Shown here: positions 1,540 through 51,448 of the stretch, piece by piece
Layout of the letters: the number at the start of each line of letters is the position of its first letter
Position numbering within the stretch: the stretch's first letter is position 1
Source: Chiloscyllium plagiosum
Taxonomy: Eukaryota
DNA: 64,000 nt
Assembly: GCF_004010195.1 (NCBI RefSeq)
Contig: NC_057753.1
Location: forward strand, 13,071,446 to 13,135,445
Direction: 5' to 3'
Notes under the pieces: generated by a model
Told to the model about the DNA's origin: nothing
Database searches by the model: none
Seen by the model: only the letters and a program-made list of their open reading frames with translations
Made by a program: the position numbers and the translations under genes

Positions 1540-1826
1540 ACTATGCCCGCTTGGTGGAGAGGGAGGTAGCAGTATCACAACTCTTGCAATTCTCACAGTC
1601 CTGGTGTGGATTTTGTAGTCTCCTGTGATTGAAGCGGTGGTAATGTTGTCTTGATCGGCTTTTCTTGTGACCGTCACCAGATGCTGAACTGTCTGATTCG
1701 GGAGCTGTCTGTACCAATGTATGGTCGTACATGTGATACTAATGGAACAGGTCATGGACACAATTCTGACTTTACTTGCAACAATCCGCAAAGGAAGTTG
1801 TTTTACTTCATATTCTCCAGACAGCT
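1540..1826 (-). pseudogene. TCR V-segment pseudogene, probably NAR-TCR supporting Vdelta type (extra Cys in CDR1)
   Basis: A polypyrimidine tract and CACAG acceptor end at 1827. The exon reads ELSGEYEVKQLP..VSMTCSISITCTTIHWYRQLPNQTVQHLV, with Cys23, an extra CDR1 Cys and WYRQ. After a frameshift, DTATSLS replaces DTATYYC. A degenerate RSS follows (nonamer TCAAAAACG at 1518-1510). The V-domain call is strong; the supporting-Vdelta subtype is inferred. Confidence 0.75.
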
Positions 1827-2085
1827 CTGTGGAGAACAGAGTGGTAAAAAGCAAGAGGGTTCCACAAATTTGGAACATAATCCAATACAATAAAGGTCGG
1901 TGAAAGCAGTTGTTCACTGACCGTCTGTCAAAAGCTGTGCAACTCTAAATAATAATTTTATTTATAAGAGGAATTAGGTTGAATAACTCGATCTTCATGT
2001 ATTATTCGGAGCTGCCTTCTTGTTGAACTTACTGTAGAAGTTATTCTTGGTGCTGGTTTCTGTAACAAGCTTTTTACACTGACAA

Positions 2086-6283: not shown

Positions 6284-7171
6284 TTAATGATAGATCAGGG
6301 TAGCGAAAGGGCATACAAACATTTTCTTTACTTCCTCACGAAACTTGTTCTGGGATAGAACAAAGGTGAACACGTTAATGCAGGAACTGAATAAAATAAG
6401 CACAATGCTCACCTCTTGGAGAATATATTGTGGATCATTGAAATTTAGATTGTTGTTCAAGCCCTTACCTATAACCCGCACGTGGTTTTCCACATACGTC
6501 ACCCACAGGAGAAGGAAACTCAGAGAGATAGAAAAAAGCAGGATAATGGATCTCCTATCGTTGGCTATTTCCTTGTCTCCACTGTCCTTGGTGCCACGGA
6601 ACCTCCTGCAGGCTTTGGTGGCTGCTAAGATGTGTCGTTCAGTCAAAACATTGAGTAAAGAAAATGAGGACAAATGGGAGAAAGGGCGTTATGATGCGGT
6701 CTAGCCAGTGGTAGGCCTGCCAAGCAGGCAGGGTGTAGTAGGTGGACTTAATGTCACAGAACCAGGAGACTCCATCCACAACGAATAATGGTTGGCAGAC
6801 GAAGTAGTACAGGAAATGTTTGATACAGCTCAGGACACATACTGTTCCTATGACCAGCGATGCAGTTTTCTCCGTGCATCATCTAGCCTTCAAGCTCTGC
6901 CAGCAGATAGCCACTAAACGGTCGAATGTGAAGGCTGCTGTCAGGCAGACTGAGCCATCCCGGCTTACATAGATCAACACTGCACTGAGCGCACTGGCAG
7001 GGGTGGTAGACAGGACACTGTACCGGAAATAAATGCTGAAAATGCGTTAGAAAATGATGGCCGTGAGGATGACAAGGAAATCAGACACCACGATTGTCAC
7101 CGGGTAGAAGCAAATGTATCGGGAGAGATTGCACTGACCTCGGGATAGGATTATGATCCTGACCAAGCTGG
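6284..7171 (-). pseudogene. GPR139/GPR142-like class A GPCR pseudogene, exon 2
   Basis: Collinear with the intact gene at 24642-25540 (SRYICFY.VTIVVSDFLVI, RDGSVCLTAAFTFDRLVAI, RRSIILLFSISLSFLLLW, SSCINVFTFVLSQNKFREEVKKMF). In-frame stops (e.g. TAA at 7049-7047), a frameshift, and the acceptor mutated to CACTG. Confidence 0.9.
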
Positions 7172-8143
7172 CAGTGACAGACAGAAAGACAAGGAACTGT
7201 AACTGACTCCAGCCAAAACGGAGTCCCATCCAGCTGTTTATGCAATTCTGATCCATCAATTTGCCATCTCTATACTCCGATTATCCCTCAATCAGTGAGA
7301 GCTGTAGGAAATCAAATGCTGCAGAAAATATTTGTTGAGAACAGACTTACTCCAATCAGCACTGCTAACCCCTTCAGATCCGTGTTCTGTGTACCGTGTC
7401 AGCTCCCGTGGTGAACTATCCAATTCAACTCATCTGTAAAATTTCCTCCCCATCCCCTATTCATATCAAGCCTATCAAACTGATATTCACTGACCTACCT
7501 TGGATTTCTATCCTAAAAGCTCTCAGCTGTTTCGAGCTTATTCTTCGAATTTTCAAGTATTCCTATAATCTCACCATTTTCATTCTGTAGCATTCTACTA
7601 ATGTCGGAGAGAGCATCTAAACTAAATTCCGAACTGGATGCACATAAGTGCATTATTCCCGAGGTGTGAACATCATTTTCCAATCAAAAATATTGCATGT
7701 TACAATTCATGAAATAAATGTAGTCATTCATTTTCACATGCAGCTGTCAAAGGTGGTGACACACTTTATCACACTATAATACACTACGAATTGGAACAAT
7801 ACTAACTAGGGTAGATTTTATTTTATAGCATTTTATTAAACGCTAGTGCTCAATAATGCCCATTTTTCATGTTTCAGGCAATGCCATACATTTCACACAT
7901 CAAATGAAAGGTGTATCTCTAAATGTTGAGTACTGCAAATTTGAATAATATATTGTTTTGCCACATAACACAAATATGCTTTGCAAGGTTTATTATCACG
8001 TTATGTGTAATATAGTTTGTCCAAGGTGAAACGTAAGCAGCACTGAATAGCAGAAATGGAAACGAGTCAGATTCTGAAAAGGATGAGACAAAATTACTGG
8101 AGAATCTCAAAACAGTAAATAACTTGATAATATTATGATTCGG

Positions 8144-8213
8144 CAGGGACACCAATAATAGTGAGAATGGGATACACAATGGCAAAGACTGGGCCAATCG
8201 CTGCACTGTGTAT
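8144..8213 (-). pseudogene. GPR139-like GPCR pseudogene, exon 1
   Basis: Encodes IHSAAIGPVFAIVYPILTIIGVP, the same 70-nt length as exon 1 of the intact paralog (MHEPVIAPFFAICYPLLAVIGAL). ATG is changed to ATA and the GT donor is lost. Confidence 0.85.
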
Positions 8214-8719
8214 TGTCTTTTGGAAATAATAGAATTCCTGAGGATCTGTGCCTTTGCTCTGTCACACTTCCAAAGCGTTTCTCATTTACTTCTGCTGACA
8301 GTCTCTAGAGGAACGACTAAATTAGAACGTGAACCTTACTCACACTTCACTGAACAAACAGATGATGTAACAGTCACCTGATTTCTATTTGTAATATTGA
8401 CGAAATAGACGATTGAAGTATTAGTGTGGTTGAACAGCTGATGCTTTACTATTTGATGCCCCCTTTATCCACGAACGAATCCTTTTTTTCAACATCGACT
8501 AGAGCGGCTGATAATAAGCACTGAGCTTAAATACAAGTCCTCCATTATCAAGTCATAGACACGATCCAAATTATTTCCTGCTTTCATGTGTTCAGAGCAG
8601 TTCATTTGTCTTTGCTTAATCCCTTTGTTTTTATTGCTTTCATTTCACCTACGTTTAGGGGGAGTCTTTCATCGTACTGAATTAGCAATCCGCTGTCGCA
8701 GACTAACCCTTGCCTCCTC

Positions 8720-11600
8720 AACAGAGGCAGTATAGTAGTAAGTCAGGAACAGTAAAGGAGCATTCACTTTATTGGGAGTTTTCTACAGGCCCCTCAATCG
8801 CAACAGAGACACTGAGGTGCAGTTAGGAGGCGGATTTTGGAAAGTTGCGCAAGTCACAGGCTTGTTGCCCCGGGTGAATTCAACTTCCCGAATACCGATT
8901 AGTTAGTTCAAATAGTTTGGGTGAAGCAGTTTTCTTTTATCAGCTGTGTCCAGGAAGGTTCCTGCCTCAGCATGTAGATAGACTGACCAGAAGGGATGCC
9001 GTTTTATAATAGATTTGTGCTTGGCAACGAATCATCCCAGCTGAGAGAGCATTTGAGCGATAGTAATCATAGCTCCCTCACCTTTCAAAGCTCATGGAAA
9101 TGTACAGGACCAGAAGTACGGGGAAGTATTTAGTTGGGGAAGGGGAGATTAGAATGTTATTCAGCAGGAACTAGGTCGCCTAAATTTGGAACAGATGTTC
9201 TCAGAGAAACGCATGACAGAAATGGAGAGATTGTTAATGGTGCAATTGCTGATAGCTATTGACAGGTTTCTCCCAAGCAAGCAAAGAAGGAGTGACAAGT
9301 TGGAAGAACCTTGCGTGACGAAGGATGTGCAACATCTAGCCATGAAGAAGAAGAAAGCTAATTTACTGTTGAGGAGGCAAGGATCAGACAGGGCTCGAGA
9401 AGGTTGTAAGTTAGTCAGGAAGGAATTGAACAATGAACTGAGGAGAGCTAGAAGAGGGCATGGAAAAGCTTTCGCAGATAGGATTAAGGAAAACACAAAG
9501 GCATTTGACGATTTTGCGAGGAACATGATGATGACCAGTGTGAGGGTAGGGCCGATCAGGGATAGTGAGGGTTGGGGAACTGTGCCTGGAGTCGGAGGAG
9601 GTAGAGAAGGTACTTTATAAGAGTACTTTGCCTCAGAGTCACTACCGGAAGGAACGTTGATGTTTCTGAGGACGGCGTGAAACAAACTGATATGAGCGAA
9701 CATGTTGGTGTTAAGACAGAAGATGTGCTAAGATTTTGAAATTCATGAGGATGGATAAGTCCCCTGGGCCAGAAAGGATATACTCTATGTTTCTACAGGA
9801 AACGAGGGAAAAGATTTCTGTACCTTTGCTGATGATCTTTGCACCCTTAGTGTACAATGGAGTAATTCTCAATAATTGGAGGGTGGCAAATATTGTTCTC
9901 TTCAAGAAACGGAATTAGGATAATCGTGAGAATTTTAGAGCAGTCAGTCACACGTCTGTGGTGGGGAAGACATTGAGAGAAAGGATCCATAATTACATGA
10001 AAAACCAGAATTTGAGTAAAGTTAGTCAGCATGGCCTTATGTGGGGCACGTCATGCTACAAACATTCTTGACTTCTTTTAGCATGTAACAAAGCGTATTG
10101 ATGAATGTAGAGCATTGGATGTGATATACAAGTAATTGAGCAATGCGTTTGATAATGCTTCCCATGGTAGGCTCATTCAGAAAGTAAGGGAGTACAGGGA
10201 AATCCGGATACAGAATTGACTGCCTCATAGAAGACACATTTTGGTTGTACATGGAAGGCTTTGAGGCTCAATTTTGGTGACCAGTGGTGTTCTGCAGGGA
10301 TCGTTTCTGGGATCTCTGCTCTACGTTATCTTTATACTTTCTTTACTCACTCACGGGCTGAGGATGTCACTGGATAATCGACATTTTGTGCCCATACCAG
10401 CGGGCAGTTAAGAGTCAACCAGGTAAGGATGGCAGGTAATATCCTTCCCAGAATGGCATGAGTGGACCAGATGGTGTTTTTTTCCCAACAACCAACAATG
10501 TTTTGCTGACCATCATAGCCTGTTAATTCCAGATGTTTGTTGAATTCAAATTTCACCCTCTGTTGAGGCTAGATTTGAATGCGGATCCCACCAACATTAT
10601 CTGGGTCTCTGGGCTAAGAGTCTCGAGATGACACCACTAGGCCATTAACGCCCCTTCAGTCACTTGGACCAGGAAGTGGAAGGGTGTCCTAGTAAAGTTT
10701 GCAGATTACCCGAGGTTTGGTGCAGTGGTATATATGTGGAGAGCTGTTGTAGTTTGCAACGCGACATTGACAGGATGGAGAACTGGGCTGATAATTGGCA
10801 GTGAATTTCAGCCAGGAAAAGTGTGAAGTGATTCACTTTGGAAGGTCGAATTTGAATGAAAAATACAAGTTTAAAGGCTGGATCCTTGGCAGTGTAGAGG
10901 TAAAGAGGGATGTTGAGGTCCAGGTCCATACATTCTTCAAATTTGCCACACAGGTTAATAGGGCTTTCGAGAACTAGTATGGTGTGTTTGGCTTTCATTA
11001 GCAGGGGGATTCTGTTTAAGAGCCACGAGGTAATGCTGCAGCTAATACAGCACTAGTGAGATCACACTTGGAACATTGTGTTCTGTTCTGATCGCCTCAC
11101 TATAGGAATGATGTAGAAGCTTTAGAGAGGGTGCAGAGGAAACTTACCAGAATTCTGGGTGCACTGGAGGATGTGTCTTACGAAGAAACGTCGAAAGAGC
11201 TGGGACTTTTCTTATTGCAGCGATGAAACATGAGATCTGACTTTGAATGAGGTGTACAAGATGATGAGAGGCATAGATAGAGTGGATGGCCGTTGACCTT
11301 TCCCCAGTCGGTTATGGCTATAACGAGCAGGCATAATTTTAAAGTGATTGGTGGAAAGTTTAGGAGAGATGTCAGATGTAGGTTCTTTAAACAGAGAGTG
11401 TTGGGTGCGTGGAATGCCCTGCCAGCAGTGGTAGTAGAGTCAGATACGTCAGGGACATTTCAGAAACTCTGGGATTGGCTCATGGAAAATACGTTAGACT
11501 GATCTTAGATAAGGATTAAAGTCCGGGACAAACTCGAGGGCCGAACGGCCTGTACTGTGCTGTCCTATTCTATGTTCTATGTTCGATGTTCTATATTCAA
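8720..11600 (+). mobile_element. CR1-type LINE, long degenerate ORF2 (endonuclease + RT) with 3' tail
   Basis: LLGVFYRP endonuclease motif near 8770; MDKSPGPERIY and NWRVANIVLFKK (9736-9918); FSQEKCEVIHFGRSN; FFKQRVLGAWNALP; (TATGTTC)n-like tail at 11565-11600. Confidence 0.92.
10285..10657 (-). mobile_element. SINE inserted into the CR1 RT
   Basis: Interrupts the CR1 RT between ..LLYVIFI and DLDQEVEG..; carries typical shark SINE motifs (gagtcaacc, ccttccc, accagatgg, gaattcaaattt). Confidence 0.65.
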
Positions 11601-11689
11601 TGTAATGCCTTAGAATTCATAACCAACTGTACATGTTATGGAAGGGTAGGCGAGGACCAGCATTTGCGTTGAAGACAAAATTGTCAAGA

Positions 11690-12035
11690 GCAATGGTTCA
11701 GTGATGGGCACTGCTACCTCACAGTGGAGGATCGGGTTCCGCTATTGACTCTAGCCTCGGGCGACTGTCTGTGTAGAGTTTTCACATCCTCCCTGTGTCT
11801 GCCTGAATTTCCTCCTGGTGCACTGATTTTCTCCCACAGTTCGAAAGATATGCAGGTTAGGAGAATTGGCTATGCTAAATTGGCCAGAGCATTCAGGGAT
11901 GTGTAGGTTAGGTGCATTATTCAGGGGCAAATATAGAGTAGGGGGAATGGGTCTCGATTAGTTGTTCTTCGGACTTGTGAACTTGTTGCGCTGAAAAGGC
12001 CTGTTTCCACGCTGTAGGGATTCGATGATTCTATG
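11690..12035 (+). mobile_element. HE1-like tRNA-derived SINE
   Basis: ggttcagtgatgggcactgctacctcacag (A box), gggttcccg (B box), ggcgactgtctgtgtagagtt, and a CR1-like 3' end ggcctgtttccacgctgtagggattc. Confidence 0.8.
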
Positions 12036-14449
12036 AATCAAAAAGAAAGAATATAGTTTCCTTAGACTGTAACAAAGGAAATTTGCTATTCATACCTGAT
12101 CAGGCCAGGAGAGCTACAAAGTCTCAGCAAATTCACTAACTCTGAACAGTGAAGTGGATTTCCTAACCGAGTCAAATGGTGTCAAGAAAAACAAATGGGC
12201 AAAAAATACAAGTTCTCGTCAGATTCAGCAATATCAACATCCTGGGATTAGAATTAACTGAAAACTGAACTGTATTAGCTACATAAGGATGGTTCCACCA
12301 CGAGCAGGGCAGAGACTATGTTTCTTGCAGTGAATGAACCGAAAGGACAGGAACAGATTAAGCCACTTCGCCCACCGAGTCTATTCCACTATGCAATGAG
12401 ATTAAGGCTGATCTCATAATCCACAACTCAACTTTTCTGCCTTTCCCCATAACCCTTGTATTTCCTTACTGACTAATAATCTGTTTCTTTCACCTTGAAA
12501 ATATTTAACTGCTCAACTATTGGAGCTCACTGCAATAAAGTAACCACAGATACACGATCCTGAAGAAAGAGAAAAAATCTTTCTTGACAATTTTGCCTTA
12601 AAAGAAAACGTTTACTCTGTGATTATACGCTCTGGACCTCGACTGATTTGAAGATAATTCAGAAGAGAACAGATCATTTTCAGATGGATAGCAATTCCGC
12701 AAAGCCTCGATGGGTGAAGAATTGAGTTCTTGCCCCATACACAGAGCAGTGAGACGAGCTAATTGGATTGTGTCAGTTTTGAATCAAATATTTTGAACTT
12801 TAAATTGTGGTGTTTTAATGCGTAGGAAAACTAAGTGCTGTTCTTAATACACATGAAGTATCTGAATTGTCGCTCACGAACGTTACAGTGTGCAGGAAGG
12901 TTCTTATTTCGAAATTTTAACCATTGCCCCGAGAGGTTTGTCGGCAGCCTCCACCCGACCCCAGTGAATTTTCTGGGAGTTGGTCATTTCCTCGAGAACA
13001 ACTTAAACAAGAGTTTCCACGTGGGATCAAATTGGGAAAACTCATGGTTAACACAAACGTTCTGACCTTTATACTTTGGAAATCAATGACCAACCCCCGA
13101 GAGAGGGGAACGGGCCAGACATCTCTCAGTCTGATTCACAAACAGAAAATGCTGAGAAAGCTCAGTGGGTCAAAGTAAGTCTGCGTGGTGAGAAATATTG
13201 CTAATTGTGGTTGTTTAGTCTAAATCGGTTTCAAAGGGGCTCCATTTGCTGTCAATAGTTTTGGATTCAGTTTGTGCTGTAAAGTGCTATAAAACTGCAA
13301 GGATTCTTTTTTGATCGTGTGCCCTGATGTATTATCTCTCTTCAAGTGAAAATTGTTATTTTCCATCTATGCTATTACAGGGAGTAATATCGAGGATCAA
13401 TCATAAATCATGTGCTCTGTAGCACAAGAAATGTTTATTCAGAGCTACATTACCACCTACATGGGAGAGGCCAGAGATCGATCCTAAACTGGTTTTCCAG
13501 TGAGACCCGCTTAGAAATAGCTCAGATCGTAAGGTCTTTGAATTCCTTAGTTGCCCAAAGAAATGTAAGGTTTTTATAGTCTTCGCATTATTTTAATTAT
13601 ATGCAAAGTCGATGTCATTGTTAGCCACATCCAGAAACCTCCACCATCTGTCTATGGGATCCTACAAATCTTCTGAAAGTTTTCTTCCTCTTTAGACATT
13701 TGCCAGCTGTATCACAATATTTACGAACAACATAAATTTTCAGTAAGTACTCTTACGATTCCTGCAAAAGTTTTACAATAGCAGGTTAGGAAGGATGTTA
13801 TTCTTATTAGTAATTATAACTTCTGTAAAATCAACTCTAATATGAAGTTACTGTGACACGACTGACAAATTGAGAATCGCCTTTGTCTGATTCCAGCCTT
13901 GCAATTGTGGTTTACGATCCAATTTGTTTCTATGCTGAATGCGACTTTTAAACTAAATGGTAATTTTAAATACTTCTTTGTTGTTTACACTTTAAACACT
14001 TCCGATTGCTAATTATCTTTTCTTAATAAAAATATATATTCAAATTCCACTAATAAGAGTGAAATTCTACCACTTATAACGTCATCAAGATATTAAATGA
14101 AACGTGCTGAGATTTCACAAATAACTCGTGGACAGCCATTTCTTTACACCGTAGTTTGCAATCACCGTAGTTTCCCTTGATCTTTGGATGAAATAACTTG
14201 TTCGAATTAGTTCCATCTACACTTAAGTTTAATTTATTTATCTTGTCTCTTCTTTATGAATCTATTCTGCCCCCTCCTGGGCGAATGGTCTTTTTGTTGC
14301 TTCGTGTTTACGCTGTCAGTGACATTATCTTTTTCTATAACGCCTCTTCATTGCGTCGGAACATTTGCTCAGGGAATGTAACTAACCTTTCATGGAGAGT
14401 TGTTTTTTGCCTTTTCAATTTTAGAATGGGCTAAACAATTCAGAATATT

Positions 14450-15245
14450 GTCATATCAAACCTTTCTGTACGCATTTCATTAAATGACAAACTTGGGACT
14501 GCGGCCAAACTAGGCCTTACAAGATGGCATTTATTCGTGTGTTTTTGCATTTGGAAATGTCTTTTTACTAAAACCTGATTGACTTCCCTCATGTTTGTTC
14601 CTGCAGAGAATGTCATCTTACACTTATAATGATGCTACTCTTTTCAGAAAGTCATGTTGTGCTTGTTTTATTTTCAGAACGTTCGTAAACACAGAGAGTT
14701 TTGGAGGTCGAGGTTTGAAGGGATTAAGGGCCACTTGATTATATCTAATTTATAGTACCTCAGACAAAAGGCTTTTAAGTTTTACAAAAAAGAACAATTG
14801 AAAATAAAGTGGAGTGGCCTGTTCTCCCAGCTCAGCATTGATCTTGTCTGGTTTGTTTTTAGCAGGCAGTTGATATGATGCTGCTGGCCTGAAAGAAAAG
14901 GGTCCAGGCTGATCTTCCCTCTCTTTGGCATCTGTCCTGCAAGAAACTGGATTTGATTTTACCTTTTGTTCCAAGAAGTGTTTCTGGGGATGGTTGCAAG
15001 TAATAGGTACAGCATCATTAAGTTGTGTTCGCAGAGGTTAAGATATTCTACACAATCTGTTCTTTTTTGTTTGTGTTACATTCAGTAATGTTGTACAAAA
15101 AATCTCTTTTGTTTAAACCTAAGTAGTTCTGCCAGCTGCATCACTCCTGGAATACCCACCTCACACCTGCTTAAATCAACAAGCAAAATTGGGGGCAGGT
15201 CTATTTAATTGAAAGATTTGGCGGGGTCTGACCTGGTGCATAACA
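14450..15245 (+). mobile_element. Putative gypsy-type solo LTR
   Basis: Ends ggggtctgacctggtgcataaCA, typical of elasmobranch gypsy LTR 3' ends; no internal coding; 5' boundary uncertain. Confidence 0.5.
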
Positions 15246-15878
15246 CCCTGCAAATCTAAATGAAGACCACAAGTCCAGCTTTGAACATGAGCAGGATTGA
15301 ACAGTTAAAACTTTTGGCCATGTAGTGTCAGCTGAAAAAGCCCGAAGCGACTATCTTGTCAACTTCTTTATGAGCTGCGAAAACACGCCCTCCATCCTCA
15401 TGACAGTTGACTTAAATACCAAGCAAGCCTATAAAATCTGCAGGATATACACACTATCCTGCTGCCGTGGGTAATGGGTGAATCCTTCAGTTCTCTCATT
15501 TCCTCATGTCATCGTTTATTTATATGTAGTATAATTGCATGTACTGGTATTATTAACGCCATCAAAACAAAGAATTTGACAACTACATGTGCATGAGATA
15601 TGACCAGGATCCATGGGTGTATTTAGATATTTAGTTCCCCAACCCCAAATCTGACGTATCCAGTTCGATTGTTATAACTCACTGTCAACTGTATGAGTTT
15701 TAATCTCGTTTGTATGTTCAGACTATTGATGAATGACTACTTCAGCTCTTTTCCCGAACTTTCCCCTGTCTATAGTCACACACGGAATTGATGGCACTTC
15801 CATTGCCAAGTACTTTGACACTTCTAAGTGCATGTCAGTTCGCTGGATGGTGAGATTCATTAATTCTTGTCACATCGG

Positions 15879-16718
15879 TTTATATAAGTTCTGCACAGTA
15901 ATAATAATGCTCTGCCTCGGGTTGCAATTTGCAATATTCTGTCTATTTAACTTGCACTGCTTTGAACTCTTCTGGGTATAGCTAGTTTATTTGAGTAAAC
16001 AGCATATTGTTCTAATCAGGGGATACTGCAAGAATGACTGGTTGTTCATTGACGAAATAGGTTACATACACTTGTCACATGTCACAAAACACAAACTGAA
16101 AGATTTTGACTGGTCATGGCATCAGAGCTTCATCAGTGATTATTTCCTTGGTGACAGTTTATTAAGTCAATTACCTTTTGGGTTGCACTCAATAAACGTA
16201 TGAATTGGACGGTCATTTTGTAATATCCGAGTCCTTTCTTGGTATCTCCCAATATTGTGAACATTTCTTCGATGATATGTGTGATAGTCCCCATGTTTGG
16301 AGATGCATAACACTACCCCATTGAACGACCCTCTTCATTAGCGTTCTCAATACTCAAAACTCTGGTCGCAACAGATAAACACCTTATGTTTCCCTGGGGC
16401 ATTTTTCTCCTACACGTGTTCACACTTGTTTTCTTCTGTCACTCAATCGGGGAATGTCATGCATATTCAGTTTCAGCAGATTGGTACTAATCATTGTCAA
16501 TAGCCAGCTAGCACAGATTCTGTATGTTTCAGTTCTATGTTCTCAATGAACAACCAGTCATTCTTGCAGTATCCCCTGATTAGAATAACGTGCTATTTAC
16601 TCAAAACAGCTAGCAATACCTAGAAGGGTTCAAAGCAGTGCAAATTAAAAGGACAGAATATTGCAAATTGCATCCCGAGGCACAGCATTATTATTATTAT
16701 TATGCAGAGCTTATATAA
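15879..16718. repeat. Imperfect inverted repeat with ~175-bp arms (15879-16052 / 16543-16718)
   Basis: ttctaatcaggggatactgcaagaatgactggttgttcattg (16010-16051) is the exact reverse complement of 16544-16585; similarity extends out to tatataag at both outer ends. Confidence 0.92.
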
Positions 16719-19620
16719 GTACGAGCCAATCAGTCAATAAATTAAGAAGCCATATTTTGCAGAAGTTTCAGAAATTTAATGGCATCTAATGCAACCTGGA
16801 ATTTTGTCTGTCTACCCAATTTGTTTCAACTTAGTCTTGACAGCCCGGTTTACAATTCTACGCATCTGCTCCGACAGACTCTGAAGCTTTTCATCTCTTT
16901 TGTCTATTTCTAATATGTTTAATGCCAATCATCCCGAGTCGTAACTGGCTCCTGCCATTTCAAATAGTCATGTCATTTTTCCAGAGAAGATTTTTTTCTC
17001 TGATCTGAACTCCTACATTTCCAAATTTAATCCGAATAGGTGAGCAATCAATTATTTTGTTGTTTTGGGGCACCATTCTTGCACTTTTGTCAGGTCACAA
17101 ACTAATAGACATGCTCATACCCTAGCAGCAGAATTACGTTTTTTCCTACATTTTTCATTATTAAATAACTTTCCCTTTGTTTCAGATGAGGGTTCATGAT
17201 TAAACTCACTTGGCTCAGGGTCATGACCACCTTTTCGCTCAAATCGTGAAATTGGGAACACATATCAATTCTGGAGAATCATTATATCGTTTTGCAACGA
17301 GGACCACCGTGCAGTCCACAATTTATTTACGAACAATGTCATACTTTCATCCCTTTCCTTCTACTACCGTTACTAAATCCATAATGACACGTAGTGATAC
17401 AATTCGTGGGTAGAGTCTAATACTTGGGACATGTCGAGAATATTGTGACTCCCTGTTCTGCATATATACATTCACTGGTGTTTGCACTAAACACATAGCT
17501 TGGGCTTGTTTAATGTAATAATTCTTGAGGTCCGTGTTTATCGACCAGTTTTATTTCCCTTTTTTGTTTTTTGGCATGGCTGGAAGGATACGACATGCCA
17601 GAGATAGCATCATGAATTCCCTTTCTGTAACGCTTTTATTCACATTTTCATCACTACTGCTCCCAGCGCTTTGGCATACATGCGATCTACAAGTAATATT
17701 ACCGTTACAATGTCATACATGCATTCTGTCTTCCCTTTCTCTCCTTCTGTTACTCTCGGAGGCTATTTTCCAATTCTAAATTAGATGGCAGTGGTGGCCA
17801 CTACACTATAAAGAACAAGGCTCCATCACAACTTCCTGAAGGGTTAATTTTCATAATTAAGCTTCATTTAAATCAAATTTGACCCAGGGATTTCACTTTT
17901 CCACCTCATCCACTATTTATATTCACTAAAACGCATGTATCAACTTTGATAATAATCTCGTATGGTCCAACCTATCATGTTCGCAGTTCCACACGCTCCA
18001 GTAATATACTTCATCCTTACTTTATCTTCTGGGTTAGCAATATCATCTAGGATGTTTTTGTGCTCACTTTCTCAATTGCTAATTCTCTGTCTATCAGCAA
18101 GTTCTCCTTTAAATTCATACAGTTGCTTTGCCAGTTCTTCCAAAGATTGTTTAACCCTATCCTTCCCATTGCACACCTATGGTTCTCCGAATACCACGTC
18201 ATCTGGTATTTACATAGCCCATCCAGTCATTAATTCAAAGAGAACCAACATCATTCATTTTTCTGGCGTTGACCTCAATTTCATTAAGATAGCAGGACGT
18301 ATGGTAAAATATCATTCAGTTTTTAGTGATGGGTCTATTCAGACTACTATATCTGAAATTTGGTCGTGGGATGGGAGTAGGATTTTCTGTTTTGTACCTA
18401 ACATGACAGATCCTTGCTTAATTCATATTTGTGTCAAATTGGCCGTTGGTCAGAATCCATGTGAAAGTGTACACCTCACCCCCACGTGACATCGGTGTAA
18501 TATGCCAATATATTTCCAACTGTTCTTGTTGAGAAATGCCTGCAGCAGAATGCTTTAACCCACCGAATAATTCTATATTTTCTGACCAAGCAGTGCTTCT
18601 TTCTCTGAGATTGGGATATGGGTCGCGTAATATCCATTTGTAATTGTTCCAGTACGTCCGTGGTTCTTGGCTGGTAGGTCAATCTTATTTTGATTGTTCC
18701 ATCTGGCTCAGGCAGTGGGGACTACGCATCTCTGACGGAATATTTTTTCTTCCTCTCTTCCAGGCCATCAACTACAAGGAGTCACCTAGTATTGCATTTT
18801 AGCCAGCCCAACGTGGGCTAGGGTATGATATGTTTTAAGAACGTATGTCATATAAAGTGTGGTGAAACTACCTTATCCATCATCACACACACTCTGTCTT
18901 GCCGTGTCATTGCCCCACGCTATTTCCCATTCATTTTTCGCTTCCTGTGTGGCTGTTTCTTGAAGAGTTTGTTTTTTTTTAAACTTAACTCTCTTGCTTT
19001 TGTGAAAATTGTGACTGGCAGTTTTACAAATGTCTGTTCGGTTTCTGTAAACATCTTAGCTGGCTTATTGGCAAACTGATTACCCCATTGTTGCGGTGTT
19101 TCTACCTTCCTATGAGCTCTAATCCTAATTCCAGTTACTTTATTAAGCAACTTAGCTACTTCCACCAACTCTTCAACCTGTTCGTCGAGCTGTCCATGAG
19201 ACGAGGTGATGTACCTTCTCCAACCTCAGGTCAACATATTATCATGCCCTATCCCAAACTCAGGCCTACCATCTCATTCTCTACCATGAAAGCTGCTGGA
19301 TTTACTGAACTGAGTTTACAAATCATTCACTATTTGTATATGCTCGTCAGCAGGGGCATTGGCCTTACTTTTCATGATTCTAATAGAATCACATAATTAT
19401 GAGGCTTCATCACTTGCCTCATCAGAGTATTGGGTTAGTACCCTAAAATTGCTCATGTGTCACAATCCAGACCTGAGCACACCGGTAAAGTCTGGCTACA
19501 TCACTCTTCCACTATTTGAATAATATGCTACCGACCTGATACTACCATCACTCGTTTAACTCACTGCTGTTTAGTTTCCGTTCTCATTATCACAAAAACA
19601 AATCTGAAAAAGCCTTTCAG
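16550..19620 (-). mobile_element. Decayed endogenous retrovirus: RNase H, integrase and env remnants
   Basis: RNase H end KVTGIRIRAHRKVETPQQWGNQFANKPAK (18920-19168). Integrase EQLQMDITRPISQSQRKKHCLV..IRWVKAFCCR..TWG (18476-18682), LHMDSDQ, FELMTGWAM, GPYEII. Env-like KRYRKGIHDAISG (about 17635-17597), heptad EKLQSLSEQMRRIVNRAV, and TM YKLCIIIIIMLCLGMQFAIFC (about 16715-16653). Confidence 0.8.
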
Positions 19621-20121
19621 CAATCTGACAATCCTAACTGTAGGTCAAAAGCTTGCTGTCACCAAACAAAGGTTATCTGCGTTTAAGGTCACACTCTGCT
19701 CTTTCCCTTGACAGTCCAATCTGATTGCTGCTTCGTTAGCCTACGTTGGGATACTGTTGAAGTAGTGGGAGGCTTGGAGGGCGGTGAAGGAGTTGGTGAG
19801 AGGGCCCTCGATCTTTATAGGTTTGACAGATAACAACCCATTCCTGATCATCTTCTTGATCAAATTTTCATTGAAATCTAGTGCACCTCATAACAATGAG
19901 TCTTCTGTGGCCCTGAATGTTTTCTCTTTCAAAATTGAAAGGACTGCAGGTAATGTAAATTAGGAACAAAAAACACAAGTTTCTGGATAAGCTCAGTAGG
20001 TCTGGCAGCATCTGTGAAGAGAATTCAGAAATAACATTTCGGGTCAGTAGGTTCTTAAGGCAGGCAGTGACTATAATATGACAAAATTTACTTTGCAATT
20101 TGAGAGGGACAAACGGGAATC

Positions 20122-22200
20122 AGATGTAGCAGTATTTTAGTTGAATAAAGGCATCGACAGAGGGAAGAGCTGACCATAATTGACTGGGAGAGGAAACTAA
20201 CAGGAAAGACAGCGGAACAGCAATGGCAGGTTTTCTGGGAATAATTCAAAAATTCATTTCTAGAAAAACTAAGGGAAAGGAGGACGAAGCAACCATGACT
20301 GACAAGGAAAGTGAGGCATAAAATCAAAGGAAAAATCATATAAGGGAGCGAAAAGCAGTGGGAAACCAGAGGATTGGGAAGTCTAAAATGACCAACAGAG
20401 GACACCGAAAATTGAAAAAAGGAGGGAGAAGATTAAATATGAGTTAAGCTAGCCAGTAATATAGAAGAAATCAAGAATGTTTTTAAATGTATAAAGGACA
20501 AAAGTGAGGCAAGAGTAGCTAATGTGCTGCTGTAAAATGAAGCGAGAGAAGGAGTAATGGGAAAGAAGAAATGGTGGAGGACCTAAAGAATTACTTTGCA
20601 GTGGTCTTCACGGTGGAAGACAGAACAAAAATCTCAATAATCCAGGAGTGTCGAGAGGCAGAAGTGAATATGGTAGCCATATCCAAGGAAAAGATGCGAG
20701 AAAATCTGAAGATGGATAAATTACCTGGACCTGGTGGACTACGGAAGGAATTCTGATGGAGAGAGATGAAAAGGGAGTAGAGACGTTAGGAATGATCTTT
20801 CAGGAATCACTAGAAAAAGAGAAGGTTCCAGAGGACTCCGAAATCCCAAATGTAACTTTTGTGCTTAAGAAGGTCGTAAGGCAAGAGATGAGGAATTACA
20901 GGTTGAGTAGCTTGAAACCTTTGGCAACATTTTAGAGTCCGTTATGAAGGATGGCATTTCTCAATACTTGGTAGTGCATGGTAAAATCGGGCAAAATCAA
21001 AATAGTTTCATTAACGGCATGTCATGCCTGACAAATCTGTTAAATTTCTTTGAAATGGTAACGAACAAGGTTAACCACGGAGAGAAAATTAATGTTATCA
21101 AATTAGAATTCAAGGAGGCCTCTGAAAAGGTGCCACACAGGAGACTATTGAGTAAGATAAGAGACCATGGTGTTAGAGGCTGGTTAATAGCATGTATAGA
21201 AGATTGGCTGTCTGGCAGAAAGCAGAGACAGGGGATAAAAGAAGAATGGGAGCCGATGACCAGTGATGTTCTCCCAGTGTCAGTGTTGAGCCGACAGCTT
21301 TTCACTTTACACATTAATGATTTGGGTGAAGGGACTGAATGCAATCTGGCTAATTTTGCAAATGATACGAAGAGAGTTGGATGAGCATGCAGTAAGGATT
21401 TAGGCTGGTTAGAAAAATGGGCAAAGAACTGGCAGATGGCACACACGCAGAGAAGTGTGGGGTCACGCACTTTGGTTGGAAGAACAGAGGCACAGGCAAT
21501 TTTCGAAATGGCGTGGAAATTCTGAAAATTGAAATTCAGAGGGTCTGGGGAGACCCATTCCAGGATTCTGTTTAGGGAAACTTGCACGTTGAATTTGTTG
21601 TTAGGAGGGAAAATGCAATGTTGGCATTTATTTCTAGAGAATGCAAATATAAGCGCAGCGCATATATCTAAGGCTTTATAAGACTCCGGTTTGAACACAT
21701 TTGGAATATTGTGAGCAGCTATGGGTTCCCTATTTCAGGAAGGTAGTACTGGCCCTGGAGTGTGCCCTGGAGAATGAAACAGGAATGTAACTTTGAACAT
21801 ATGAGGAACTCTGTCTCTCTACTCGAGAAATTTATAAGGATGAGTGGGGATCTAATTAAAATTTACAGAATACTGAACGGCCTGGACATTGAGGATGTTG
21901 GGAAGTCGTTTCCATTAACAGAAGAGACGTGTACCCGAGGGCGGAGTCTTTATTTAAAGGCAAGAGCCTTCAGAACGGAGATGAGGAGAAACGACTTCAG
22001 CCAGAGACTGGTGAATCCATGGAATTCATTGCTAGAAAAGTCTGTGAAGGCCAGGTTATTGAGTAATTTAAGGGACAGATCTTTAGATTTTTAATTATCA
22101 AGAGGATCGAAGGTTACAGGGAGAAAGCGGAGAATGTGGTTGAGAAACTTGTCAGCCATGGTTGCATAACGGAGCAGACTGGATAAGCCATTTCCTTAAC
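20122..22200 (+). mobile_element. CR1-type LINE (degenerate RT)
   Basis: ORF 20944-21384 (SCLTNLLNFFE..KVPHRRLLSKIRDHGVRG..WLSGRKQR..LFTLHINDL..NFANDTK); ORF 21762-22094 covers the RT C-terminus. Confidence 0.92.
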
Positions 22201-24299
22201 TGCACAGTACCTCGCTCATCTGTTTTTTTTTTTTGCTTCAATGCTGCTCAGAGCAAACTTTAATCACCTTCTGCTTCTGCAAAAATGGACTGTTCACAAC
22301 TGAACATTCTCCACGAAAAATCACAGAAAGAGATAATCACCCCTTGCATTGGTTTCGAAATTATATTTTCAACTGCAAAACTAACGGGATAAAGAGTGGT
22401 TAATTGTGGTTAAATGATCAGGATGGATATGTGAGCCAGTGTATGTAGTAAAATCGGACCCTCCACTGAGGCTTGCAGCATCAGCTCCACGGTCATTTCC
22501 TGCCCCGTGCCTTCCAGTCATCACTGTCTTTTACTTTTCCACTCCTTCTCTCCTGCTATGAACTTCTTCCCGGCCAACTGCAGGTCTCTAATTAGAAACT
22601 GCAACTTTTACTAACCGATTCCTGGTAAATGGACGTCATCCACTAGGACATGATTTATAGCCCTTTCTTAATTACTGCAGAGGTGAAGAGCTGCTTTCTT
22701 CAATCCTAGACCACCTTGGATGTCGGTATAGCCAAGTTATGAGTAGGGAGGGAGTTGCATGATTTAGATCCAGTAACGCTGAAGGAACTGAGATGTAGTT
22801 CCAACTCAGAATGGCACATGGCTTGCAGGGGTGTTTGTGGGTGGCAGTTTTGCAATCTATCCACTGCCATTTTCCATCCAGACACTACCAATGTCTTACT
22901 GAACTGAGTCTGGCAGATTCAGCTTTATGTATTTTATTTGTAATCAGCATTTCGATTTCTTTTGGCGAATTCACACAAAAGAAATAATTCTCAATTTCCC
23001 AACTGGGAATTTTATCCAGAAATAGGCGATCCAAGCTCTGAATCGTAACCCCGGAAAAAAAGAGTGATCTTGACAATAAATCAGCATCTTGACTTGTACA
23101 CCCTCTTCTGCTATATCTGATATCCCATCTGATATCAATCATAAAGACTTTTATTTTCTTAATAAATGCTGAAACGTATCGAATGTTTTCTTGAAGCTTG
23201 AGATCAGAAGACATGAAAATTGGGGAATTAGATTCTATTAGGTTCCCTACAGCGTGGAAACAGGCCATTCGACCCAATAAATCCACACCAACCTTCCGAA
23301 GAGTAACCTATTACATAAAAAGAATTAAATTAAAGATAAATGCAATCGATACTAGAAATCAAAGACAAACACAGAAGCATCTCTAAAGAAGTAGAAGATC
23401 TGCCATCATCTGCGGAGAATGAAACCAAATTAATGTTTCGAGTACAGTTGTACTTTCATTCAGAACAGTTCTGAAGGGAGTCAAATCGCGCTTGAAACGT
23501 TAATTTTGTGGGCCAAATGCTCCTATTCATAATTGTGACTTACACGGAAAAAAAATCAAATCAAAGTTAACAGATTTGGAGTTGATTCATAAGTTTCTAA
23601 AACTCAGCAAATCAGGTTGACCACGAAATTTTCATCTAGATAGAGGAGCAAAATAGCAATCTGTTAGTTTCAGATGTAGACATGAATTTGAAGTGCCACT
23701 TCTGTTGACCTCACACACACACACGAAAGAAAAGAAAAGCATCAAATCTAAATTAGTTCTGAAACAAAATAATAAAGATGTAAATAACACCTAATTCAGG
23801 GAAGGAGTTGAAATGAATTTGAGTGATTATAATGTAATTGGGAACAGACTGCTGATGTTTGATTTGAATTAATTTATTATTATCATATCTACTAAAGTAA
23901 TGTGAAAATTTGGTTTTGCATGCAATGGAGGCAGATCACAACATAGCGTGATTGAACAGAACGAGGAATCATTGTTACAGCTGCAAAGGTAAGGCAGATA
24001 AAGCAAGATCTACATTTGATATTGTTAATTGACTAATAGTTCCGGATTTATCAAAATAGTGCTGATTGCAGAGCACGTAAACAGACATCAATAAATCTGA
24101 ATGAATCATTGATGAGGCAAGTTGAAATGCTTGAACCAACTTTTTGATGTCTTCTTCTTAATAATGTTCCAGATTTTCAAATAGATAGTAACCATAGTTC
24201 CAAAACCATTGAATAAAAAATGGATAAAGGAACATGCATAAATACCACTCCAATTAATTAATCGATTTCCCAAAAAATGAATGAACAAATATATATTTA

Positions 24300-24360
24300 T
24301 GTAATAGGTAGATAAATAACGAGATAGATAAATAGATACATACATACATACGTAGATAGG
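24300..24360. repeat. (GATA)n/(CATA)n tetranucleotide tract
   Basis: gatagataaatagatacatacatacatacgtagatag. Confidence 0.75.
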
Positions 24361-24641
24361 TTATAAAACACTGCCTGACAATACTTGGAGTCCTCAAGTT
24401 GTGTTCAGAGACGCAAACTGTGGACTATTATCACATCTAAAACCTCTACAACTTCAGAAGATTTCAATAGTTGGAATAGTAAACATCAGAGCTGAAGAAT
24501 ACTCCTTACATTTAATGAGTACAAGAGCTTGCCAGGATCCTTTCTCATTCTCGTTTGAGAGAGACCATGATGAACTGTGCCTCTGTGATGAAAGAGAAAA
24601 AGTATCGGGAGATGTCTTTATTTTGTTATCCATGGAAGGTT

Positions 24642-25540
24642 TCACCATGTAAAATTCGTGATAGTAGTGAAAGGACACATGAGCAGCTTTTTCATCTCTT
24701 CTCGAAATTTGGTCTGGGAAACCACATAAATGAAGACATTGTTGCAGGAACTAAGTATCTGTAGCATGTTGGTCGTTTCTTGCAGAATAATATCAGGGTC
24801 ACTCGATTCCAAGCCGTTGAAGTAACCTTCACCTACCAATTGCACGTAAAGGTAACGCCCCACATAAGTGGACCAAAGGAGGAGGAAACTGATCGAGATG
24901 GCAAAGAGCAAGACAATGGATCTTTTGCGATTGGCCATCTCTGGGTCTGCACGGTCACCTTCACCCCAAAGTCTTTTGCGGGCTCTGTTAGCTTCTAAGA
25001 TGTGTATTACAGTTAATGTGTTGAGAAGCAGAATGAGAAGGAAAGGGAGAAGTGGTGTTAAAATCTGATCCAGCTTGTCGTAGACCTTCCAGAAGGACGA
25101 AGTATAATAGATTGGTTTAATGTCACAGAACCAGGGCACCCCATCCACAATGTACAGCGGCTGAGAGACTAAGCAGAAAGGGACATTCTTGACACAGCTC
25201 AGAGAACAAATCATTCCTATTACCAGAGTTGCAGTTTTCTTGGTGCAGTATCTGATCTTTAGCTTCTGACAGCTGATGGCCACAAAACGATCAATGGTAA
25301 AAGCCACTGTCAGCCAGACAGAGCCATCTCGTGTAGCATAGACCATCACACTGGTGACTGTACACGCAGGGGTGGTGGACAGGACACTGTTTCTGAAGTA
25401 GATACCACCAATACGGTTGAGCACACAGCCAGCCATAATGACAAGGAAGTCCGCTATTGTGATTGCCACCAGGTAAAATGTGATGCAGAGAGAGAGCCCA
25501 CATTTTCTTTGACACAGGACCACGATCGCCAACGAGTTTG
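24642..25540 (-). CDS. GPR139/GPR142-like class A GPCR, exon 2 (end of TM1 to stop)
   Basis: Open frame after the acceptor gtccttctAG (phase 1): ANSLAIVVL..YLVAITIADFLVI..C..SVWLTVAFTIDRFVAI..PLLPFLLILLLN..RKRSIVLLFAISISFLLLW..SSCNNVFIYVVSQTKFREEMKK. With exon 1 this gives seven hydrophobic segments; spliced CDS is 969 nt = 322 aa. Confidence 0.93.
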
Positions 25541-26933
25541 CTAGAAGGACAGTAGAGATAGATATGTGACAGAATGAATCCCAAACACCAGTTAATTACC
25601 CTACCTATTTCGTGACTGACAACCTCAGCTCACCATCTTCGTACATCCTTTTATTACATCATGATTCCTACAATTACAAAGTTGTTGGTTTTTATTCAAC
25701 ATTCAGTCATGAATTAAACATTTGTACTTACGTTCGTCAGTCCAGTCAGACCGAGTGCAAATTCAGTTCTCTTTCCACTGAGTCAAATCGTTGCGAAGCT
25801 CACCAGTTTAATCAAACACAAAATATTTTTGTCTTATCCAAATCTTTGTTAATACTATTTGTTTAATATATTTGTTTCCTGTCTGGCAATGCCGGATTTT
25901 AATAATCCCAAGCTTTGAATTTTCAGTTACAGCCAGAGGTAGGATCACTCCTCACACCGCAAAAGTCTCAATTTATCTACAATTCTGCAATATCGCGTTT
26001 TATACCTATCAATCAGCCTATCAGTGGTTATATGTTTATCTACAGACGTAGTAATCTCTGGAAACCTTCTTTAATGTCGGCCCTCATTGTTTATGTTTCT
26101 CTTTTTTTCTTGAGGTTGTTCATTATAATCTAACTCATTGTTCACGGCTGCACCAGCATGTGTACTTTATTCCTTATTGCTCTCAAAATCATGCCTTGCT
26201 CGGCTATTTCAAACATCAGTTTATCATCAACCAGATTTCTGCCCGCCTGCTGCCACATACGGACAAGAGTCGGTAACAACAGTAACTTTTGTTCTTTCAA
26301 ACTGCATGAGTGAAGATGGTATTTGGTACACACCCCACGAATTACATGGTCATCATTAGATTTTTCTTTTTCTTTAATGCCACATTCTTTTACGAAATGC
26401 AAATATGGTCAAATATCTCCTAATGACAACAACAGATTCCATAACAAATTAAAATCTCTTACGAACACTCATAACTTGCATACAAATCCTGAAACACTTT
26501 CTGACATAATATTGATGACACTACAAATTGGAAACGTATTAGTTTGTAGTCATTATGTCCGTCCTGCAATAAAAAATACTGTGATCGTTGAATGTAGATT
26601 TAATTTGAGCTCGTCTACTACAACAATTGCGATCTAATAATGCACTTTGATTCGTGGTTTACGAACCTAATTTACGAAATTACATAGCAAATGGAATTTC
26701 TAGAAATTGCTCATGAAACATTAGTTAATATCATGCATTGTTGCCAATGAAATTACAATTTCTATGCATGTTTAGCATAAAACTTTGTAACGTACTATAG
26801 GCAGGTGCTGGCTCCTAACATTCAAAGAGCGCTGAAAGTTACAAAATAATGTAGCCCACCACAAAAGGTAATATACAACACATTTGGTGATTTACAGACA
26901 TAAATGATAACTTATCGGTGATTGAAGGCTTAC

Positions 26934-27003
26934 CAAGGGCACCAATCACAGCGAGAAGGGGATAACAAATGGCAAAGAATGGGGCAATGACTGGTTCATG
27001 CAT
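26934..27003 (-). CDS. GPR139-like GPCR, exon 1
   Basis: ATG at 27003; encodes MHEPVIAPFFAICYPLLAVIGAL plus one base, followed by a GTAAGC donor; phase matches exon 2. Confidence 0.9.
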
Positions 27004-27110
27004 CGTCTTTCAGAAGTTAAGGAAGTTCCCGAATCTGTAGTTGCAATTTCTGCGAATTTCAAATCTTGCCTCATTTATTTTGAGCGAGTCTCCAAAGGGA
27101 CGATTCGTGA
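27004..27110 (-). promoter_or_regulatory. Conserved 5' leader/proximal promoter of the GPCR paralogs
   Basis: Alignable with 8214-8320 upstream of the pseudogene (ctcatttattttga..gtctccaaagggacga vs ctcatttacttctg..gtctctagaggaacga); includes a TATA-like AATAAAT about 70 bp upstream of the ATG. Confidence 0.45.
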
Positions 27111-31478: not shown

Positions 31479-31732
31479 TACTCTATTAAAATAATAGGTG
31501 TCGGTATAATCAACTGTGTCTTGCATTTCCAGCAAAACCGTTATTTCTGCTTCAAACCTCCCTTCTGCGAAGATCCACTCCCTATTTGTTGCCATCGTGG
31601 CTTGTGTGAAAAAATCATCCTTTTGTAAAGAAACAATCCATGACCTATCAGAGAAAACTTTGATGATGGGAGAATGGTACTAATTTCTGGTCACCACTTC
31701 CGGAATCTGTACCACTCACTGACAGAAAGATG
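31479..31732 (-). pseudogene. Degenerate TCR V-segment pseudogene with RSS remnant
   Basis: Acceptor atttctAG, then SFCQ*VVQIPEVVT...FAEGRFEAEITVLLEMQDTVDYTDTYYF, then AACAGTG-21 bp-ACCAAAACT (31478-31442). Confidence 0.65.
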
Positions 31733-39181: not shown

Positions 39182-39455
39182 CTTCAAGATACCTAAAGCA
39201 ATCAGTTTAATTCCTTTGGGTAAGTTAAAAGAGATTCTGACCTGCAATTCCAGGGACTTGTAATCATCCTCCACTTATCTTCAGGAAATATCTCAGAATT
39301 TCCCGGGGATACTGGATGTCTCAGTCTAGGATTCTGTCGGTGTATGTTGTCAGGTGACAGCAGCGCAATTAAAAGTGCTCGGCGTTCCTGACAATTGATT
39401 CAGATGGATTTTGTGGCAGTGAATTATTGCCACGCGTTACTGTGTCACAAAAACA
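39182..39455 (+). pseudogene. Highly degenerate V-like relic
   Basis: Acceptor tttctgttcaacAG; across frameshifts ..EILTCNS..STYLQ..FPG..FLTIDS..QMDFVAVNYCHA; nonamer ACAAAAACA at about 39447-39455. Confidence 0.4.
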
Positions 39456-48500: not shown

Positions 48501-48539
48501 AGTTTTTGTACGAGGCTTCCTCTGGGTACTGTCACTGTG
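48501..48539 (-). other. Recombination signal sequence, 23-bp spacer
   Basis: CACAGTG-acagtacccagaggaagcctcgt-ACAAAAACT. Confidence 0.97.
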
Positions 48540-49800: not shown

Positions 49801-49839
49801 GGTTTTTGTCCAGAGTTTCAGTGACTTTCTGTCAGTGTG
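49801..49839 (-). other. Recombination signal sequence, 23-bp spacer
   Basis: CACACTG-acagaaagtcactgaaactctgg-ACAAAAACC. Confidence 0.93.
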
Positions 49840-51409: not shown

Positions 51410-51448
51410 AGTTTTTGTGCAGGGGACTAGGCACTCCCATTCACTGTG
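51410..51448 (-). other. Recombination signal sequence, 23-bp spacer
   Basis: CACAGTG-aatgggagtgcctagtcccctgc-ACAAAAACT. Confidence 0.97.

What the first reader, a model, noticed from the sequence alone, without database searches (positions are those of the whole stretch)
6284..27003. A duplicating two-exon GPR139-like GPCR family sits inside a TCR V-segment array
Seen in sequence: an intact spliced 322-aa 7TM gene (exons 27003-26934 and 25540-24642) and a pseudogenised paralog (8213-8144, 7171-6284) with the same exon sizes, phase and 5' flank. Both are co-oriented with the intact V genes and flanked by V segments on both sides (1.5 kb; 31.5 kb and beyond). Established: non-immune genes interspersed in TCR loci are known (trypsinogens in TRB, olfactory receptors at the 5' end of mammalian TRA/D). 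Inference: with the Vs on the minus strand, D-J-C should lie to the left, so deletional rearrangement of the 48.5-kb or 51.4-kb V would excise this GPCR. T-cell clones would then keep or lose the receptor depending on V usage, a somatically variegated GPCR. It may also be co-duplicating with V cassettes or driven by TCR enhancers.
Basis: partly seen in the sequence, partly recalled or inferred. Interest (0 to 1): 0.8.

Follow-up and report, generated by a model that had tools for sequence, protein, structure and literature searches.

The report
Orphan receptors among shark TCR segments
An intact receptor gene and a dead relative sit among T-cell-receptor V segments in a shark, but they belong to a family with over 1,200 copies genome-wide that is equally dense elsewhere on this chromosome, so they are likely passengers (possibly chemical-sensing receptors) that T-cell gene rearrangement would flip or delete only as a side effect.

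Summary
Genes confirmed, mechanism as stated refuted. The 322-aa two-exon 7TM gene and its pseudogene are real and lie among V segments of a 2.3-Mb TCR alpha/delta-type array. But D, 119 J segments and a C exon lie 1.4 Mb to the RIGHT on the + strand, so the 48.5- and 51.4-kb Vs would join by inversion and leave this gene untouched (0 of 73 mapped intact Vs delete it; 2 invert it). The gene is not GPR139 (24% identical to the genome's own GPR139); it belongs to an elasmobranch family with at least 1,254 motif matches, as dense on this chromosome outside the V array (>=13.0/Mb) as inside (>=14.7/Mb). In-array copies are not a clade. Part of the idea survives: 8 other intact copies lie downstream of plus-strand Vs and would be deleted, and six unexamined distal plus-strand Vs might delete this one. 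Expression is untested; a conserved O/E-like promoter element hints at sensory neurons. The parallel is mammalian odorant receptors among TRAV genes. The scan noted this family and this interleaving before on neighbouring DNA.

The parts
26934..27003 (-). Exon 1 of intact class A GPCR (ATG, short N-terminus, start of TM1; phase-1 GT donor)
24642..25540 (-). Exon 2 of intact GPCR (TM1-TM7, DRF at 107-109, NVFIY at TM7, stop)
27089..27098 (-). Conserved upstream element (CCTTTGGAGA; family consensus CCTCTGGAGA about 98 nt before ATG, followed by AATAAAT); O/E(EBF)-like by recalled consensus
8144..8213 (-). Exon 1 of pseudogene paralog (ATA start, donor lost)
6284..7171 (-). Exon 2 of pseudogene paralog (stops, frameshift; 64% identical to intact exon 2)
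8302..8311 (-). Same upstream element in the pseudogene (CCTCTAGAGA)
1579..1830 (-). Broken TCR V segment, relative of the plus-strand V family at C44:13.40-13.53 Mb
31554..31658 (-). Decayed NAR-TCR-type V relic, no RSS, followed by a LINE fragment
39279..39431 (-). Decayed TCR V relic
40100..40599 (.). 500-N gap, likely a scaffold join of unknown size and orientation
46688..46952 (+). Broken plus-strand TCR V
48501..49073 (-). Intact TCR V: leader exon, V exon, 23-RSS at 48539
49801..50062 (-). Broken TCR V with good 23-RSS at 49839
51410..51929 (-). Intact TCR V: leader exon, V exon, 23-RSS at 51448
53505..53974 (-). Broken TCR V

Best explanation
The intact gene is one ordinary member of a very large elasmobranch family of GPR139-related class A receptors, and it is likely a passenger in a region where receptor genes and TCR alpha/delta-type V segments both expand and decay by local duplication. 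Shown: gene structure, family size, chromosome-wide density, position of D-J-C, mixed V orientation, purifying selection. Inferred: the receptor likely serves chemical sensing in neurons (short N-terminus, huge birth-and-death repertoire, conserved O/E-like promoter element), and V(D)J joining would leave it in place (named Vs), invert it (distal minus-strand Vs) or delete it (distal plus-strand Vs, or a second joining after an inversion) without consequence because T cells likely do not express it.
For: D (12-D-23) at C44:14,552,210, 119 of 119 J matches and a C1-set exon are on the + strand 1.4 Mb to the right; in the J cluster's own scaffold block 18 of 21 intact Vs are minus-strand, so inversion must be routine. 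This gene is deleted by 0 and inverted by 2 of 73 mapped intact Vs, the same if the 13.11-14.03 block is flipped. 1,254 exact motif matches genome-wide, control 0; 8 lie in the 1.86 Mb mapped, and the motif catches only 8 of 13 intact and 0 of 19 broken copies, so it undercounts. Union of two searches: 100 copies on C44 at 1.1-8.8 Mb (13.0/Mb) vs 28 at 12.2-14.1 Mb (14.7/Mb), both lower bounds. In-array label needs 10 changes on a quick tree vs 10.4 shuffled. No receptor among 33 Vs of the recent four-V repeats at 13.385-13.535 Mb nor among 71 proximal Vs. Median dN/dS 0.14 over 78 pairs of 13 intact copies. O/E-like site (<=2 mismatches) in 13 of 19 promoters vs shuffled mean 2.8, max 7 of 500, distal window 0 of 19. 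No 'receptor 139' row among 8,645 bamboo-shark liver/spleen/kidney cluster markers, where other GPCRs are listed (PMC11372145 supplement).
Against: The receptor tract's distal edge (12.20 Mb) nearly coincides with the first V (12.21 Mb) and none of 128 mapped C44 copies lies at 8.8-12.2 Mb, so the overlap is tighter than random placement. 12 of 13 intact in-array copies fall in one supported subfamily, and 21 of the window gene's 50 best hits lie at 12.2-14.1 Mb. One ~36-kb duplication carries receptor plus Vs. The homeodomain site expected beside O/E in olfactory promoters is not enriched (8 of 19 vs 4.8 shuffled, p 0.08; distal control 12 of 19); promoters share ancestry, and EBF is also a B-cell factor (own knowledge). 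Marker tables miss sparse, clone-restricted expression. Four tree rows labelled 'out' (C44:12.27-12.57) proved to lie inside the V array. Three 500-N joins separate the gene from D-J.
Confidence: 0.7

Rival explanations
1. Somatically variegated T-cell receptor set: in-array copies are expressed in T cells, and V choice deletes, keeps or repositions them. For this copy the route would be inversion by the NAR-TCR-type cassette at C44:13.002-13.007 Mb, which would move it from 1.47 Mb to about 113 kb from the C exon, or deletion by distal plus-strand Vs or secondary joining.
For: 8 intact copies at 13.66-14.11 Mb lie downstream of 16-26 plus-strand intact Vs (1-16 if the block is flipped). Intact V-D-J-V cassette on the gene's own side of the gap; distances. 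Six stop-free plus-strand V matches at 12.27-12.83 Mb.
Against: Geometry alone shows no function; the same geometry exists for mammalian OR genes among TRAV (PMC4574546). No marker-table row. The promoter element is the family-wide one, not a lymphoid novelty. With more than a thousand paralogs elsewhere, loss of a few copies matters only if each is specific.
Confidence: 0.07
2. The family is an immune or barrier-tissue sensor repertoire (for microbial peptides or metabolites, like formyl-peptide receptors) that co-locates with antigen-receptor loci for regulatory or selective reasons, independent of V(D)J joining.
For: Family copies tile the chromosome that carries Ig C1-set exons and the TCR array, and several lie within 0.1-2 Mb of C1-set clusters on other contigs, e.g. 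C25:53.29-53.36 and C49:5.84-5.93 Mb; not tested statistically.
Against: No marker in myeloid, B or T clusters; repeat-rich duplication-prone regions collect unrelated multigene families, and scaffolding may cluster them.
Confidence: 0.18
3. Assembly artefact: the receptor block was joined to the V array by mistake, or the true order puts the gene between the named Vs and J.
For: A 500-N join at 40.1 kb and two more before D-J.
Against: 22 V-like hits and 11 receptor copies alternate left of the join, and 104 and 17 right of it; relics 4.5 kb and 12 kb from the gene have no gap between.
Confidence: 0.05

Closest known systems
Olfactory receptor genes among mammalian TRAV genes (human OR10G2, OR4E2; mouse Olfr1507-1509; PMC4574546, passages read)
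   Same: Non-rearranging class A GPCR genes interleaved with V segments at the distal end of a TRA/TRD locus, exposed to V(D)J deletion.
   Different: 2-3 genes in mammals vs at least 32 copies (13 intact) among 126 V-like hits over 1.24 Mb here; a different GPCR family; V orientation here is mixed, so inversion dominates.
GPR139 (human structures 7vug, 9m42) and RefSeq/UniRef models named 'probable G-protein coupled receptor 139'
   Same: Best solved-structure hit (E 7.6e-5); short N-terminus, intron at the start of TM1-coding region in the family; 120 listed homologues are elasmobranch or unnamed models, most with this automatic name.
   Different: The genome has its own GPR139-like gene on C21, only 24% identical to this protein and on a very long branch; the name is an annotation label, ligand unknown.
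Elasmobranch antigen-receptor complex (IgM, IgW, IgNAR, TCR alpha/delta, NAR-TCR; PMC12227049, parts 1-2 of 8 and passages read)
   Same: TCR alpha/delta translocon with scattered Vs and NAR-TCR cassettes on a chromosome carrying Ig clusters.
   Different: The paper's text and 2 supplements do not mention GPR/GPCR genes.
Inversional TRA/TRD rearrangement in teleosts (PMC8559430, passages read)
   Same: V genes opposite in orientation to D-J-C; inversion preserves intervening DNA.
   Different: Teleost Vs lie downstream of C; here they lie upstream in both orientations.

Membership tests
Class A (rhodopsin) GPCR | 7tm_1 profile over cut-off with TM3 DRY-like and TM7 NPxxY-like motifs | tested here: met
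   E 4.7e-19, 69 bits; DRF and NVFIY; the hydropathy scan resolved only 5 peaks above threshold
GPR139 orthologue | Closest gene in the genome to vertebrate GPR139, high identity | tested here: not met
   Separate single-copy gene on C21; 24% identity
GPR139 orthologue | Activation by L-Trp/L-Phe (recalled) | not testable with these tools
   No assay
Gene excised by V48.5 or V51.4 joining | Gene lies between the V and D-J, with V and J in the same orientation | tested here: not met
   D-J-C to the right on + strand; gene is distal of both Vs in either block orientation
Gene inside a TCR alpha/delta-type V array | V segments on both sides and linked D, J cluster and C exon | tested here: met
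   V array 12.21-14.52 Mb; D, 10 J, C1-set exon, 109 J. The alpha/delta and NAR-TCR labels are inferred from order and recall; C-alpha was not found
Co-duplicating V-GPCR cassette | Collinear duplicated blocks holding both receptor and V | tested here: inconclusive
   Met once nearby (12.90-12.96 Mb); not for the window's pair (nearest paralogs 69-71% nt, no collinear block); 4 of 32 receptors vs 33 of 197 Vs lie in >=85% duplicates
Olfactory/chemosensory receptor repertoire | Large birth-and-death family under purifying selection | tested here: met
Olfactory/chemosensory receptor repertoire | O/E plus homeodomain sites in proximal promoters | tested here: inconclusive
   O/E-like 13 of 19 vs 2.8 shuffled; homeodomain not enriched; consensus recalled, published logos not visible
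Olfactory/chemosensory receptor repertoire | Sparse expression in sensory neurons | not testable with these tools
   No suitable RNA run could be evaluated

The most novel reading that the evidence does not exclude
Sharks carry an undescribed thousand-member receptor repertoire, and the branch embedded in the TCR alpha/delta array is read out in T cells: V choice deletes some copies and, in NAR-TCR cells, a 1.55-Mb inversion brings this gene to about 113 kb from the constant region and its enhancer, giving clones V-dependent sets of chemical sensors.
Probability: 0.06. Interest if true: 0.88.

Novelty: new variant of a known kind. Interest (0 to 1): 0.48.

Why it matters
The T-cell variegation idea fails for the Vs named and has no expression support, so the local finding is a large-scale repeat of the mammalian OR-among-TRAV arrangement. 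The family behind it matters more: published work describes cartilaginous fishes as poor in GPCRs and olfactory receptors (PMC8455134 passage; PMC10116579 abstract), yet this genome holds over 1,200 copies of one orphan class A family that my searches did not find described. If it is chemosensory it would revise shark olfaction; if expressed in lymphocytes, the mapped deletion and inversion paths give direct PCR tests.

Tried and rejected
Expression: no RNA holder listed. Two single-cell runs (2% and 6% of reads sampled) and one RNA-guess contig set laid 0 records on the gene; there is no positive control for these runs and their tissue is unknown, so this is no test either way. C-alpha not located: Pfam DUF1968 search gave only noise, ORF scans to 14.765 Mb showed none, probably in a gap; homologue search for the C exon found nothing. 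My first V scan missed the 31.5-kb relic and I provisionally rejected it; pairwise tests reinstated it. The RSS-like match at 39,444 overlaps the start of a V relic and is taken as chance. The first motif calibration had a regex slip; one search is the valid one. The tree is the quick version, rows chosen as best hits to the window gene, fragments and copies with stops left out. RSS of six distal plus-strand Vs remain unexamined; none matched the exact RSS pattern, but many intact Vs also fail it. Atlas on a homologue returned only automatic GPR139/FMRFamide-receptor-like clusters. Literature: GPR139+shark 4 papers, GPR139+cartilaginous 1, 'G-protein coupled receptor 139'+shark 1, none on this family by listing; other searches. 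PMC7909615 (nurse shark TRA/D review) was not held; the catshark supplement (PMC11979771) could not be read; both may bear on novelty and expression.
Full report
Observation. The spliced 322-aa ORF, its splice sites and the pseudogene are at the stated coordinates. The protein is a class A GPCR. The pseudogene has lost start codon and splice sites and carries stops and a frameshift. The two are old paralogs: 580/900 identical in exon 2, and each has nearest paralogs at only 69-71% in the mapped region. V elements flank the gene without a gap on both sides, but are relics (1.6-1.8, 31.6 and 39.3 kb); the intact Vs at 48.5 and 51.4 kb lie beyond the 500-N join.

Place. The window is G000:C44:13,071,446-13,135,445 on a 15.3-Mb contig. 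I mapped 1.864 Mb contiguously (12.871-14.735 Mb): 197 V-like hits (73 intact by RSS and ORF criteria, 30 plus, 43 minus), 32 receptor exon-2 hits over 250 nt (13 with ORF >=290 aa; one 114-nt hit at 14.73 Mb left out), one 12-D-23 segment at 14,552,210, 119 J matches all on the + strand (10 before and 109 after a C1-set exon at 14.569 Mb). This order fits D-delta, J-delta, C-delta, J-alpha (inferred from established TRA/D organisation); C-alpha was not found. V matches extend left to 12.21 Mb. An intact V-D-J-V cassette of NAR-TCR type (label inferred) lies at 13.002-13.007 Mb on the minus strand, on the gene's side of the gap.

Rearrangement geometry. D-J-C is to the right and opposite to the window's Vs, so these would join by inversion of DNA to their right. 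In the J cluster's own block 18 of 21 intact Vs are minus-strand, so inversion does not rest on scaffolding alone; teleost TRA/D also inverts (PMC8559430, passages). The gene is distal to both named Vs and is deleted by 0 and inverted by 2 of 73 mapped intact Vs, also with the 13.11-14.03 block flipped. Three routes still touch it: inversion by distal minus-strand Vs (the NAR-TCR cassette would bring it from 1.47 Mb to about 113 kb from the C exon); a second, deletional joining after such an inversion (inference); and six stop-free plus-strand V matches at 12.27, 12.28, 12.42, 12.48, 12.80 and 12.83 Mb whose RSS I did not see. Eight other intact copies at 13.66-14.11 Mb lie downstream of 16-26 plus-strand intact Vs. 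So clonal loss of some family members is likely as geometry; that it matters is unshown.

What the family is. Homologues are elasmobranch models auto-named 'probable GPR139' (356 hits, best 120 listed; nearest 97% from Chiloscyllium punctatum). The genome's real GPR139-like gene is single, on C21, 24% identical. One 26-nt motif has 1,254 exact matches, control 0, and undercounts. Copies lie on many contigs. On C44 the union of two searches gives 128 copies, 100 at 1.1-8.8 Mb and 28 at 12.2-14.1 Mb, at similar lower-bound density. Intact in-array copies are under purifying selection (median dN/dS 0.14, 78 pairs, many dS near saturation) and interleave on a quick tree with copies elsewhere (10 changes vs 10.4 shuffled), though four 'out' rows are really in the distal array and 12 of 13 in-array copies share one subfamily.

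Co-duplication. One ~36-kb duplication at 83-91% identity carries a receptor and V pseudogenes. The youngest V expansion (33 Vs at 13.385-13.535 Mb) and the 71 proximal Vs carry none. No collinear V-plus-receptor block involves the window's pair. Against pure chance: receptor tract and V array begin at almost the same place (12.20 vs 12.21 Mb) and no mapped copy lies at 8.8-12.2 Mb.

Likely function. Exon 1 was found for 20 of 27 long copies (19 distinct). Their promoters share CCTCTGGAGA about 98 nt before the ATG and AATAAAT 12 nt later. Against a recalled EBF/O-E consensus 13 of 19 match with <=2 mismatches (shuffled mean 2.8, max 7 of 500; distal window 0 of 19); homeodomain sites are not enriched (p 0.08). 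O/E and homeodomain sites mark mouse OR regulatory DNA (PMC7804114, PMC5608512, passages; logos not visible). Shared ancestry weakens the statistic and EBF also acts in B cells (own knowledge). A published bamboo-shark liver/spleen/kidney marker table has no 'receptor 139' row in 8,645 while listing other GPCRs (PMC11372145); sparse expression would escape it. I put a sensory-neuron role at roughly 50-60%, an immune or barrier role near 20%.

Known and new. Human and mouse carry 2-3 OR genes among TRAV genes (PMC4574546, passages), the direct precedent. The shark antigen-receptor complex paper does not mention these receptors; nor do the passages searched in the catshark, Squalomix, bamboo shark and whale shark papers, and searches listed no paper on the family. 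Earlier notes of this scan describe the same family and interleaving on neighbouring DNA; I re-tested size, GPR139 distinctness, the promoter element and the nearby duplication.

Verdict. Real genes, real interleaving, wrong direction of joining, no evidence of lymphoid use. New variant of a known arrangement, carried by an apparently undescribed giant receptor family. Interest 0.48.

Noticed in passing
G000:C44:13,002,505-13,006,727 (L044): Intact NAR-TCR-type cassette (V with 23-RSS, 12-D-12, J, supporting V with 23-RSS) on the minus strand 1.55 Mb from D; decayed cassettes at 12.878-12.884 and 12.975-12.979 Mb each have a plus-strand receptor 3-7 kb away.
   Followed up: partly
G000:C44:14.24-14.55 Mb: 18 of 21 intact Vs in the J cluster's scaffold block are opposite to D-J-C although upstream of it: a shark TRA/D locus that would rearrange largely by inversion, with IgH-like Vs among them.
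   Followed up: partly
G000:C44:13.385-13.535 Mb: About eight tandem copies of a four-V unit (two plus, two minus strand), mostly intact, with no receptor gene.
   Followed up: partly
G000:C44:14.552-14.694 Mb: 10 J segments before and 109 after the C-delta-like exon; only one D found; C-alpha not found up to 14.765 Mb.
   Followed up: partly
G000:C25:53.29-53.36 Mb; C49:5.84-5.93 Mb; C44:0.6-1.4 Mb; C39:25-27.8 Mb; C8: Family copies lie near Ig C1-set clusters on several contigs; no statistical test.
   Followed up: no
G000:C41:18.52-18.97 Mb (L215, L216): TCR beta-like locus with V and J sets in both orientations facing each other, suggesting a duplicated inverted TRB; C exon at L216:115-500.
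   Followed up: no
L109 (G000:C44:14.715-14.725 Mb): Fragmented retrovirus-like gag/pol frames just beyond the J cluster; observed only.
   Followed up: no
G000:C44:2.1-2.5 Mb: Isolated TCR-like V matches and 23-RSS 10 Mb from the array, inside the other receptor tract.
   Followed up: no
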